Below, in pieces: positions 12,001 through 15,000 of a DNA stretch of 15,816 bases. Made by a program: the position numbers. Location of the stretch: IMG/VR virus record IMGVR_UViG_2917408641_000001. One strand, 5' to 3'. The DNA is from a virus (Duplodnaviria > Heunggongvirae > Uroviricota > Caudoviricetes). How positions within the stretch are numbered: position 1 is the first letter of the stretch; each line of letters begins with the position of its first letter.

Positions 12001-15000
12001 CTTCAGTAGCTGGTTAAACATGTTGGTAAGTGGATTGCCGCACCCGAACGGCATCGGGTTTATCTGGTAAGAAAAGCGACCGCCTGTTTTGCGCTCTTTT
12101 CTTATGACTGAACCGCTGCGCCAGAGTCGGCGTAACTCCGCATTAATGGCTGTGGTTGGGGTATTCAGTGCTGCGGCGATTTCTCCACCGCTACACCCCG
12201 GATTGGCGGCGATATAGTCCAGAATGGTCATCTGCGTGACTCCTGTACCTGTCGGATAAGGTTCACCCGCACCACATTCGTGGCGCAGAAGTAAGTGCCG
12301 TCAGTGAGATAGATGTGATGTGCATCCTTTTCTGAACGGTGTTTGTCGATTGTGGTAATCAGGCGTTCGTCGACTTCGTATTCACGCCCTCTGGAGGTAA
12401 AACGAACGACAGGAAAATGCTTAATTGCCATTACGCCTCCTTGGCGTGTGCGAATACCTCCGCGAATGCGGATTGTTTTTACATTTTCTTATTTAACCTG
12501 TGGTTTTATTTGCTCTGTTATTCGCCAGTGAAAAAGCGTTCAATCTTTTTTATTGAATGAATAATTCGCATAATCCCAATGGCGCAGGCCACCGAAATAA
12601 TCAGAACAAGCCATGAGATAAATATACTCATGCGATATTCCCCAGCTTATACGGTTCAATATGTTCCCCGCATTCTGCGGCACAGATCAGCTCGGAAAGT
12701 TCGTTAAGTGCATCCAGAGCATCAGCGTAAAAAGCCACGTCATACAGACTCCGGATTGCCCTGGTCAATGAGTCACGGGCTGCACGTTCAGCATGAGCGC
12801 CTGATGCGCTTAAGCGAAAATAAAAACGCTCAAGTGCTTTGTTAATGAGAGTTTTATATTCTTTGCCCATCACAACGCCCTTTAATCTGCTTTCTTAATT
12901 TCAACTTCTGAATCCATACAAATAATTTCGATATAGGGTTCATCGCCATTAGCCTGGCGCGCTTTTTCAGCTTTGCTAATGATTTCTCGTACGGTCTGGT
13001 ACGGAAGTTCCACAAGCAGTCGCGTGCCGTTCAGATAAACGTAAGTGGCTTCGTCGGCTCCGTTTTTACCCGCCGGAGCCACTCCATCAATAGCGGATGT
13101 GCGTAATAACAGTTCACCGCGAAAATCAATAAAACGGATAAATACACCTTGTGCATGGTCTTTGGTCATAAAGCACCTGTTATAAATCAGCCTGTTTAAT
13201 AAAACTTTGTCCGCGAAGCAGACGATCAACCGTGCGTAGTGCTTCGTATAATGTGAAATCCTGCCCGAACTGATTGTCGCCGCTGCTTAGAGCAAAAATG
13301 CGGTTTCCAGTAAACGGATTGCGTGGGCATTTGTGGACCACGATTCCAGCTTTCTCAATCAGCCAGGCATGCTCGCCGATTTGTTTTACTGGGTAGCCAT
13401 CCGGCGTTGCGTGTGTATCACTCAGGCTGTAGCGGATGTTGCTGCGTGATGCACTGGTAGTGAAACGGTTAGCGTGACGTTCAGCACCATTACGAAAGCG
13501 TGAATTACGTTGTTGTTTCATGTTAAAGACTCTGTACAGATTTAATTATTCCGGCATAGCGGCCGAACTCAAAATATTTGCGATTAAATCGCATCGCATT
13601 GTTTTCACGTTTTGCGGACTGCTGGTTCATTTTCGTTTGCCTCCGCACATGAGAATTACGCCGCTTAAGAGGTAACCGAAGTTAATTGATAGTATTACAA
13701 TTAACATAAGGTCCAATTTGTCCATGCCACACATAATTACCCTCATTGCAGTAGTTGTGGTTTATCAGGTTTCTCACCCGATAAACCAGATAACAAACGC
13801 TATAAACATCGCCCCAATAGCTGCCGGGAAAAGCCCTTTGGTATAAGCGGCGATATATTCAATGCTGAGTTCAATAAAGCGTTCTTCATGTCCCGTTAAC
13901 TTACGAAACAAATAGATCGCTATTACGCCTATCTCAATAAAAACAAGGGTCAGAATGGCGCTGATGATATGGCTGGTCATTTATGACTAAAGCCCCAGCC
14001 ACAACAACCATGCATCGCGGCGTTCTTTCGGTTGCTCAAAAAACGCTTTGCGCATGCCTTCGTTAAATGCTGGCAGATATACCCAGTTTTCTGATGCACG
14101 CGTCTTTACTGAACCTGGTTTCACAAAGTCAATTGTCGGTAGCTTTGCTGCGTCAATCATGGTTCTGACTGTGGATTCCTTGCGGCCGATCATCTTGGCG
14201 AATAGTTGATATGGCACCGCTTCAAGTGGATATGGTGCTACCTGAATGAAGCCCCCAAGCTCTGATTCGCTCATTGTGGTAATCTCCCTAATTCGTTCGA
14301 ATGGCTCAAAATGGCTTATATCGGCTTATTTGAGTGTTTTTATGTTTGTGCCCGATGTGGCATGTTGTGATGGAGGATATGCCCGATATGGCATCTTTAT
14401 CAAGCATGGGTGAAAAATTTCGCCTGATTCGTGAAGCAGAAGGTATGACCCGCCAGGAGTTTGCGGATTGTGTTGGGTTGCCTTATGGGACGGTAACTAA
14501 CTATGAGGTGAGGGGGAAGCAAGTAACAGAGGGTGCCTTACTTAAGGTTACGAAACACCCTAAATTTAAGAAATATGCTTATTGGTTATCAACAGATGAA
14601 ACGATGCCGGAGGTTGGGCAAATTTCTCCGGCTCTCTCTCTTGATGGTTCCTGCAATTCGGAGGGAGATCGTGTTTCAACCGAAACAATCCAAAAATTAT
14701 CCCGCTGAGGCCAGAAAACTGGTTAGACCTGCTTTTTGTCTGGTCTGATTATTGCTGGAAAGAGGCTGGAGAAATTGTAGAGCGGTTCATTGGAGGGCTT
14801 CGCAATGTCGATTAAGAAGCTCGAAGATGGTCGTTATTTGCTGGACATCAGGCCGAACGGACGCAAGGGAAAGCGCGTGCGTAAGGTATTTGACAAAAAA
14901 TCGGTAGCGGTGGCCACTGAACGCTACATCATGGCGAACGCTGAAAAGCGGGAATATATACAGGGCTACCGTGATCGTCGAACGCTAAATGATTTGCTTG

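What the first reader, a model, noticed from the sequence alone, without database searches (positions are those of the whole stretch)
14275..14395. Paired 15-bp direct repeats at the C / cox switch, one overlapping the repressor start codon
GCCCGATGTGGCATG and GCCCGATATGGCATC are spaced 31 bp start to start at the edge of the divergent regulatory region. P2-type repressors are known to bind direct-repeat operators, so these are candidate operator half-sites. Their overlap with the C start suggests autoregulation.
Basis: partly seen in the sequence, partly recalled or inferred. Interest (0 to 1): 0.35.

Follow-up and report, generated by a model that had tools for sequence, protein, structure and literature searches.

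The report
Prophage repressor operator pair, P2-type
The two repeats are almost certainly where a P2-family prophage repressor binds to shut off the phage's early (lytic) promoter; this is an expected feature, with the modest twist that each repeat is a small palindrome, unlike the textbook P2 sites.

Summary
TGCCCGATGTGGCATGTT (14349-14366) and TGCCCGATATGGCATCTT (14380-14397) are 16/18 identical and 31 bp apart; 0 of 2000 shuffles of the region give as good a repeat. They lie between a Cox gene (13987-14274, minus strand) and a P2-C-type repressor gene (14388-14708, plus strand), in a layout collinear with phage P2.

They flank the -10 hexamer of the only consensus-type promoter in the gap. 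This promoter is on the minus strand (TTGATA, 18 nt, TATCCT) and points at cox, as P2 O1/O2 flank the -10 of Pe.

Comparative evidence is strong. Three immunity types share 97-98% identical Cox and about 98% identical integrase, but their C proteins are only 45-48% identical. Each has a different repeat pair at these positions. Among closer C relatives the repeat sequence changes with the recognition-helix motif.

Each repeat is a 16-bp dyad-symmetric site (TGCC-NN-AT-NN-GGCA), probably bound by one C dimer, rather than a non-palindromic half-site. The overlap with the C start codon follows from the early promoter's -35 lying inside C; it is not evidence of autoregulation.

Verdict: an uncharacterised member of a known kind of switch, of low to moderate interest. 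No binding experiment exists for this class.

The parts
13987..14274 (-). cox: Cox-type excisionase and repressor of the lysogenic promoter, first gene of the early operon
   Evidence: Pfam Phage_Cox, E = 1.3e-22. Annotated Cox in PhiR44_2, P88_4B11, Chuche and Shae_phiSM.
14301..14330 (-). Three Cox-box-like units with 10-bp phasing. Plus strand: ATGGCTCAAA / ATGGCTTATA / TCGGCTTATT. Minus strand: TTTGAGCCA, TATAAGCCA, AATAAGCCG. Probable Cox binding site over the lysogenic promoter Pc, whose exact hexamers are unresolved.
   Evidence: Read directly from the sequence. Conserved in all three immunity types, which share Cox. Resembles the P2 cox-box TTAAA(G/C)NC(A/C) spaced 10-11 bp (PMC3936717) and the P2 stretch around the Pc -10, CTTATAAT against CTTATATC here. 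No good sigma-70 match on the plus strand.
14348..14363 (.). Distal operator site (equivalent of P2 O2): GTGCCCGATGTGGCAT. About +5 to +20 of the predicted early transcript. The direct-repeat copy extends over 14349-14366.
   Evidence: Repeat. No polymorphism at 14349-14363 among 11 distinct type-A sequences, while flanking columns vary. Invariant positions in relatives are nTGCCnnATnnGGCAn.
14372..14376 (+). Shine-Dalgarno sequence (GGAGG) of the C gene, overlapping the -10 hexamer of the opposite strand
   Evidence: GGAG ends 12 nt before the ATG in all three immunity types.
14374..14379 (-). -10 hexamer TATCCT of the early promoter Pe (predicted start near 14367), which drives cox
   Evidence: Only promoter-like hit in 14150-14500. 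The equivalent hexamer is TAAACT in Shae and TATACT in Chuche. TATCCT is kept in relatives whose operators differ, with TATTCT in one (L089).
14379..14394 (.). Proximal operator site (equivalent of P2 O1): ATGCCCGATATGGCAT. Lies in the spacer of Pe (about -12 to -27) and covers the C start codon. The direct-repeat copy extends over 14380-14397.
   Evidence: Repeat. 6 of 8 dyad pairs. Same sequence in Lelliottia locus L084, where C is 73% identical and the upstream context differs.
14398..14403 (-). -35 hexamer of Pe, inside C codons 4-6. TTGATA here; TTGACA in the other 10 distinct sequences of this immunity type.
   Evidence: window-specific A at 14399, a synonymous change. TGTCAA is kept at this position in the 11 close C relatives and in Chuche; Shae-type loci carry TTGATT.
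14388..14708 (+). [quoted passage not shown]
   Evidence: phmmer against P2 C (PDB 2XCJ/2L49), E = 4.4e-16 over residues 6-88. Weak HTH_3 hit. Followed by the integrase gene.
14805..15816 (+). int: P2-type tyrosine integrase, second gene of the lysogenic operon. Disrupted here by a frameshift and by a substitution of a residue I take, from memory, to be catalytic.
   Evidence: Alignment with P88_4B11 int.

Best explanation
The two repeats are the operator of the immunity repressor C of a P88-type (Xuanwuvirus) P2-family prophage.

The early promoter Pe reads leftward into cox. Its -35 is at 14403-14398, inside the first codons of C, and its -10 is at 14379-14374. One repeat (14379-14394) fills the -35/-10 spacer. 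The other (14348-14363) covers about +5 to +20 of the transcript.

Each repeat is a 16-bp dyad-symmetric site, TGCC-NN-AT-NN-GGCA, whose arms are one helical turn apart. I infer that one symmetric C dimer binds each site, placing its two recognition helices in consecutive major grooves. Two dimers 31 bp apart (about three turns) would then exclude RNA polymerase from Pe and keep cox and the replication genes silent in the lysogen.

Because Pe probably faces the lysogenic promoter Pc, as in P2, shutting Pe should also relieve interference on C/int transcription. At high occupancy the bound dimers lie downstream of Pc and could dampen it.

Shown: the repeats, their position relative to a conserved promoter, C homology to P2 C, and covariation of repeat sequence with C.

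Inferred: binding itself, its stoichiometry, the exact transcript starts, and any effect on Pc.
For: - **Repeat is real.** 16/18 identity at 31-bp spacing; 0 of 2000 shuffles reach it.
- **Layout matches P2.** P2 has the C start, the Pe -35 over that start codon, O1, the -10, O2, Pc, then cox, with a 114-bp gap. [quoted passage not shown]
- **C is a P2 C homologue.** E = 4.4e-16 to PDB 2XCJ/2L49. P2-type C proteins bind two repeats flanking the -10 or -35 of Pe: 22 bp apart in P2, 26 bp in P2 Hy dis, 34 bp in WPhi (PMC1904268, PMC2995052).
- **Module swap.** Window/P88, Shae_phiSM and Chuche types have Cox 97-98% and Int about 98% identical but C only 45-48% identical. The cox-proximal half of the gap is conserved, while the C-proximal half carries a different repeat pair in each type, around the same -35/-10/SD scaffold.
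- **Fine covariation.** Six loci with helix-3 motif GLPYGT.TNYE.RGK keep TGCC..AT..GGCA while the central and flanking bases and the spacing (31-34 bp) vary. Loci with GLSY[D/N]T carry TGTC..AT..GACA, the same change on both arms. Loci with ..TKG[F/I] carry TTCCACATGTGACAC plus GGCACATATGTCA shifted into codons 1-5, and the stretch just upstream of the ATG then becomes variable.
- **Polymorphism.** Among 11 distinct sequences of this immunity type there is no variable column at 14349-14363 or 14380-14398, and variable columns lie on both sides.
- **Dyad.** In the non-coding distal site, all ten invariant positions form five complementary pairs and no pair is half-invariant. A close relative has a perfect 16-bp palindrome at this position, ATGTCTAATTAGACAT (L117).
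Against: - No binding, footprint or reporter data exist for this repressor class (searches found none).
- The dyad symmetry of the window's own two sites is not significant by itself: 6/8 and 5/8 pairs, and 34-44% of shuffles do as well. The dyad reading rests on relatives.
- The proximal site is partly coding, so part of its conservation could be coding constraint.
- Two of the eleven type-A variants (three of 23 loci) carry -10 variants that would weaken the proposed promoter: CATCCT in L008, TGTCCT in L015/L048. They may be decayed prophages.
- Pc could not be located by consensus, so the face-to-face geometry and any autoregulation are by analogy only.
- The experimentally studied family members P2 and WPhi are reported as non-palindromic, and neither shows significant dyad symmetry here.
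Confidence: 0.85

Rival explanations
1. The repeats are the C operator, but they are read as in the published P2 model. [quoted passage not shown]
For: [quoted passage not shown] The two copies are more alike (14/16) than either is to its own reverse complement. Dyad symmetry in this window alone is not significant.
Against: Conserved positions across relatives are exactly the symmetric ones, and the non-symmetric positions 6, 7, 10 and 11 are the ones that vary. The specificity change TGCC to TGTC is mirrored by GGCA to GACA. Perfect or near-perfect 16-18-bp palindromes occupy this position in many other C classes.
Confidence: 0.1
2. The repeats act at the RNA level. In the C mRNA leader, arms of the two copies pair and hide the Shine-Dalgarno sequence and start codon, controlling C translation.
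For: The minimum-free-energy fold of 14330-14420 pairs the right arm of copy 1 with the left arm of copy 2, around the SD.
Against: The fold is not better than shuffles (z = -1.55; 17 of 200 shuffles fold as well). Heteroimmune relatives replace both copies together with the repressor, which a cis-acting RNA structure would not require. Spacing varies from 31 to 34 bp.
Confidence: 0.03
3. The repeats are binding sites for Cox or for the integrase (arm-type sites) rather than for C.
For: Cox and Int both bind directly repeated motifs. TGTGGCA loosely resembles the P2-type Int arm consensus tgTGGaCa (PMC3448106).
Against: Cox and Int are 97-98% identical in the three immunity types, yet the repeats are completely different. 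Cox-box-like units with the expected 10-bp phasing lie elsewhere (14301-14330) and are conserved with Cox. No further copy occurs in the window.
Confidence: 0.02

Closest known systems
Phage P2 C repressor with operators O1/O2 at Pe (NC_001895; PDB 2XCJ)
   Same: Homologous ~100-aa HTH repressor (E = 4.4e-16) in the order int-C / cox with a 113-114-bp gap. Two like-oriented repeats flank the Pe -10, and Pe's -35 lies at the start of C, over the start codon in P2 and in codons 4-6 here. Cox boxes lie over the other half of the gap.
   Different: P2 sites are 8 bp (ATCTAAAC in C sense), non-palindromic and 22 bp apart. Here the sites are 15-18 bp, have a dyad-symmetric core and are 31 bp apart.
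Phage WPhi C repressor and operator (NC_005056)
   Same: The sites flank the -10 of Pe and are about three helical turns apart (34 bp against 31 bp). WPhi C tolerates changes of spacing (PMC1904263), which matches the natural 31-34-bp variation seen here.
   Different: WPhi sites are 10-bp repeats (GTCACCAATA), described as half-sites. C identity was not computed against the window; P2 and WPhi C are 43% identical (PMC1904268). Only one of the two WPhi copies shows partial dyad symmetry when extended (6/8, not significant).
P2 Hy dis C repressor and operator
   Same: Same family. Two repeats bound by a small dimeric C protein (PMC1904268).
   Different: 8-bp sites, 26 bp apart, flanking the -35 rather than the -10.
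C.Esp1396I controller protein and lambdoid repressors (P22 c2, lambda CI at OR1/OR2)
   Same: An HTH dimer on each of two adjacent dyad-symmetric sites. PMC2995052 notes the structural similarity of P2 C to these binders of palindromes.
   Different: No demonstrated sequence relationship beyond the HTH fold. Different spacing (15 bp for C.Esp1396I). No evidence here for a third site or for a shared Cro-type competitor; the opposing repressor, Cox, has its own sites.
Phage 186 CI / Apl switch
   Same: A P2-family switch with face-to-face promoters, and operators that are inverted repeats.
   Different: 186 CI is a 196-aa two-domain protein of a different type, with distal sites and a CII establishment pathway (PMC1904263). 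The protein here is the short P2 type.

Membership tests
P2-type C/Cox transcriptional switch | Immunity repressor is a ~100-aa HTH protein homologous to P2 C | tested here: met
   106 aa; phmmer E = 4.4e-16 to P2 C (2L49/2XCJ) over residues 6-88. The C-terminal half is conserved in alignment A2.
P2-type C/Cox transcriptional switch | [quoted passage not shown] | tested here: met
   cox 13987-14274 (minus strand), C 14388-14708 (plus), int from 14805 (plus); 113-bp gap. Relatives are annotated the same way.
P2-type C/Cox transcriptional switch | Two directly repeated sequences flanking the -10 (or -35) of the early promoter Pe | tested here: met
   Repeats at 14349-14366 and 14380-14397 on either side of TATCCT at 14374-14379. 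The same placement is seen in heteroimmune relatives.
P2-type C/Cox transcriptional switch | Operator sequence is specific to the immunity class, meaning it changes with C | tested here: met
   Three classes with near-identical Cox and Int but different C proteins and different repeats. Three sub-specificities among 66-82% identical C proteins.
P2-type C/Cox transcriptional switch | Face-to-face promoters Pe and Pc with overlapping transcripts | tested here: inconclusive
   Pe is predicted and conserved. No acceptable sigma-70 match for Pc on the plus strand; its position is suggested only by similarity to the P2 Pc -10 region.
P2-type C/Cox transcriptional switch | Cox boxes (9-bp motif, 10-11-bp phasing, at least six copies reported per P2 Cox binding site) over Pc | tested here: inconclusive
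   Three phased units at 14301-14330, matching the P2 consensus at 4-6 of 8 specified positions and conserved together with Cox (PMC3936717). Six copies were not found.
P2-type C/Cox transcriptional switch | C binds the repeats and represses Pe | not testable with these tools
   Needs EMSA, footprinting and a reporter assay. No published data were found for this class.
Binders of non-palindromic direct repeats (the P2 C recognition mode, PMC2995052) | Half-sites lack dyad symmetry | tested here: not met
   Invariant positions nTGCCnnATnnGGCAn form five complementary pairs. The sister group has TGTC..AT..GACA, with a perfect palindrome in L117. Caveat: symmetry in this window alone is not significant.

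The most novel reading that the evidence does not exclude
Paired 16-18-bp dyad-symmetric operators, one dimer per site, may be the general rule for P2-type C repressors. The non-palindromic 8-10-bp 'half-sites' of P2, P2 Hy dis and WPhi would then be degenerate special cases.

Natural covariation in this clade also hints at part of a recognition code. PYG against SY(D/N) at the start of helix 3 goes with C against T at operator position 4 and its mirror position 13. RGK against KGF after helix 3 goes with a different core.

If true, this would recast the puzzle of how a symmetric P2 C dimer reads direct repeats, and would give a set of orthogonal repressor/operator pairs that can be predicted from sequence.
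Probability: 0.5. Interest if true: 0.45.

Novelty: new member of a known kind. Interest (0 to 1): 0.3.

Why it matters
This switch type occurs in 223 of 5,426 complete E. coli genomes, so knowing its operator helps predict superinfection immunity among P88-type prophages.

For the field, the useful point is comparative. This class and many other C classes place a dyad-symmetric site where P2 has a non-palindromic 8-mer. That offers a simpler model for how the symmetric C dimer binds, and a testable specificity swap (TGCC/GGCA to TGTC/GACA with PYG to SYD).

The feature itself is expected in any P2-type prophage and would not surprise a specialist.

Tried and rejected
- **RNA structure in the C leader.** The fold is no better than shuffles (z = -1.55), so this was rejected as the main function.
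- **Cox or Int binding.** Rejected because both proteins are conserved while the repeats are swapped.
- **Sigma-54 promoter.** TGGCAT resembles the -24 element, but no matching -12 element lies at the right spacing. This is my own reading of the sequence.
- **Extra operator copies.** None found in the window with the full motif or with the dyad core.
- **Locating Pc by consensus.** Best plus-strand match is 7 of 12; left unresolved.
- **Assigning this C to a published immunity class (I-X).**
  - The key paper (Karlsson 2006, PMC1482927) is not held.
  - The class IX prophage of UTI89 was fetched and is a different C with its own palindromic operator.
  - Classes IV-VIII and X could not be checked.
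- **Dyad symmetry as a single-sequence statistic.** Not significant for this window, so the claim rests on conservation and covariation.
- **Genome-per-species scan with the C alignment.** It returned only distant relatives, 36-56% identical. Close relatives had to be fetched one at a time.

Full report
**What is in the sequence**

The window between 13987 and 15816 holds the regulatory core of a P2-family prophage.
- **cox:** a Cox gene on the minus strand (13987-14274; Pfam Phage_Cox, E = 1.3e-22).
- **Gap:** 113 bp.
- **C:** a small helix-turn-helix gene on the plus strand (14388-14708).
- **int:** a tyrosine integrase from 14805.

The region is 99% identical to Escherichia phage PhiR44_2 and to Xuanwuvirus P88_4B11.

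With extension they are 18 nt, 16/18 identical and 31 bp apart. None of 2000 dinucleotide-preserving shuffles of 14275-14410 gave a 15-mer pair at 14/15 identity. The motif occurs nowhere else in the window.

**Start of C**

Database annotations disagree, using the equivalents of 14370, 14388 and 14407. ATG 14388 is the one conserved in all heteroimmune relatives, always 12 nt after a conserved GGAG. It also gives an N-terminus that aligns with P2 C. So the second repeat does cover the start codon.

**Position relative to promoters**

The only consensus-type promoter in 14150-14500 is on the minus strand: TTGATA (14403-14398), an 18-nt spacer, then TATCCT (14379-14374), pointing at cox.
- One repeat fills the spacer.
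- The other begins a few bases after the predicted transcript start.

In the annotated P2 genome the order is the same. The Pe -35 lies over the C start codon, followed by O1, the -10, O2, Pc and cox, in a 114-bp gap.

The promoter scaffold is conserved in relatives even where the repeats differ. TGTCAA (= TTGACA) sits in codons 4-6 of C in the close C relatives and in Chuche (TTGATT in Shae-type loci), and TATCCT, TAAACT or TATACT abuts the reverse complement of the Shine-Dalgarno sequence.

Published work shows that P2-type C proteins bind two repeats flanking the -10 (P2, 22 bp apart; WPhi, 34 bp) or the -35 (P2 Hy dis, 26 bp) of Pe (PMC1904268, PMC2995052). C here is a clear homologue of P2 C (E = 4.4e-16 to PDB 2XCJ/2L49).

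**Comparative test 1: module swap**

Loci found with the Cox protein fall into three immunity types.

| Type | Cox identity to window | Int identity to P88_4B11 | C identity to window |
|---|---|---|---|
| Window / P88 | 100% | 100% | 100% |
| Chuche | 97.9% | 97.9% | 44.9% |
| Shae_phiSM | 96.8% | 98.5% | 48.1% |

(All values.)

The cox-proximal half of the gap, including three 10-bp-phased Cox-box-like units at 14301-14330, is conserved in all three types. The C-proximal half is replaced, and each type carries its own pair of repeats at the same place:
- TGCCCGAT(G/A)TGGCAT, twice, in the window type.
- ATTACATGTAA and ATCACATATGAT in the Shae type.
- TTTCT-N6-AGAAA, twice, in the Chuche type.

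The repeats therefore track C, not Cox or Int.

**Comparative test 2: fine covariation**

Close C relatives (66-82% identical) were fetched from Salmonella, Serratia, Citrobacter, Lelliottia and Enterobacter.

| Helix-3 motif | Loci | Operator sites |
|---|---|---|
| GLPYGT.TNYE.RGK | 6 | (A/G)TGCC-NN-AT-NN-GGCA |
| GLSY(D/N)T | 3 (4 with L117) | TGTC..AT..GACA |
| ..TKG(F/I) | 3 | TTCCACATGTGACAC, plus GGCACATATGTCA moved into codons 1-5 |

- In the first group the inner bases, the flanks and the spacing (31-34 bp) all vary.
- In the second group the change is the same on both arms.
- In the third group the stretch just upstream of the ATG becomes variable.
- Within the window's own immunity type, 11 distinct sequences show no variable column at 14349-14363 or 14380-14398, but do show variable columns on both sides.

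**Anatomy of each repeat**

In the non-coding distal site of the first group, the invariant positions are nTGCCnnATnnGGCAn. All ten form complementary pairs, and no pair is half-conserved. The sister group shows a perfect 16-bp palindrome at this position, ATGTCTAATTAGACAT (L117).

The arm centres are 10 bp apart. This fits the P2 C crystal structure, a symmetric dimer placed to enter two consecutive major grooves (PMC2995052). I therefore read each repeat as a full site for one dimer rather than a 'half-site'.

The caveat is explicit: the dyad in this window alone (6/8 and 5/8 pairs) is not significant.

Paired near-palindromes at this location are common in the wider family. Twelve of 26 surveyed loci (some near-duplicates of one another) have a palindrome with shuffle p of 0.101 or less. 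Further classes appear. P2 and WPhi themselves are not significantly palindromic.

**Mechanism**

C dimers on the two sites would cover about -12 to -27 and +5 to +20 of Pe and block the early operon.

The overlap with the C start codon is a geometric consequence of Pe's -35 lying inside C. It has no bearing on translation, because C acts on DNA. An RNA-structure alternative is not supported (z = -1.55).

Effects on Pc are known for P2: activation by relief of convergent transcription, and damping at high C (PMC3448106). They could not be tested here, because Pc has no recognisable consensus.

**Novelty**

I found no paper on the P88-type switch, and I could not match this C to the published immunity classes. 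Class IX (UTI89) is different.

This is an uncharacterised member of a well-known kind of switch. The dyad-symmetric sites are a modest variation. [quoted passage not shown]

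Noticed in passing
window 15030-15036 and 15568: The integrase gene is disrupted. A 7-bp tandem duplication (AGGCGTA) shifts the frame. Separately, CGG to TGG turns the Arg of the HxLRHT motif into Trp; I take this to be a catalytic residue of tyrosine recombinases, from memory. Relatives have an intact 334-aa Int. The prophage probably cannot excise or integrate.
   Followed up: partly
window 14399: The -35 hexamer of the early promoter is TTGATA here but the consensus TTGACA in all 10 other distinct sequences of this immunity type. The change is synonymous in C. No complete E. coli genome is identical across 14275-14420; the best is 99.3%.
   Followed up: partly
window 3888-4283 and 5341-6195: An IS1 transposase fragment and an IS3-type (rve) transposase ORF lie between prophage early-region genes. 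Together with the broken integrase, this suggests a decaying prophage.
   Followed up: no
window 6790-7749: A ParM/StbA-type actin-like segregation protein (Pfam E = 3.5e-82) is encoded next to the gpA replication gene at 7883-10396. This would be unusual for an integrating P2-type phage, if it belongs to the phage.
   Followed up: no
window 14301-14330: Three units with 10-bp phasing (ATGGCTCAAA, ATGGCTTATA, TCGGCTTATT) resemble P2 cox-boxes and overlap a CTTATATC stretch similar to the P2 Pc -10 region. They are conserved wherever Cox is conserved.
   Followed up: partly
L084:792-1521 and L089:793-1521: In a Lelliottia and an Enterobacter kobei prophage, two different C-like HTH genes sit in tandem between cox and int. 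In L084 each has its own paired operator upstream: GGTCTCACTTGTGAGACC-type, then TGCCCGATGTGGCAT-type. This may be a double-immunity arrangement or a recombination intermediate.
   Followed up: no
L008, L015, L048 (equivalent of window 14378-14379): Some prophages of the same immunity type carry -10 variants CATCCT or TGTCCT in place of TATCCT. Either these are promoter-down mutations in defective prophages, or the -10 assignment needs experimental checking.
   Followed up: no
L094:1683-1830 (E. coli UTI89 prophage PhiECO5, immunity class IX): A different C and a 173-aa Cox, but the same design. A near-perfect palindrome TTCACCATGTGGTGAA lies upstream, and a half copy (ATGGTGAA) lies over the C start codon.
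   Followed up: partly
L072/L073 (Photorhabdus), upstream of C: Instead of two like-oriented sites, GGTTCCGA and its reverse complement TCGGAACC lie about 41 bp apart (start to start) across the promoter region. This may be a different operator geometry within the family.
   Followed up: no
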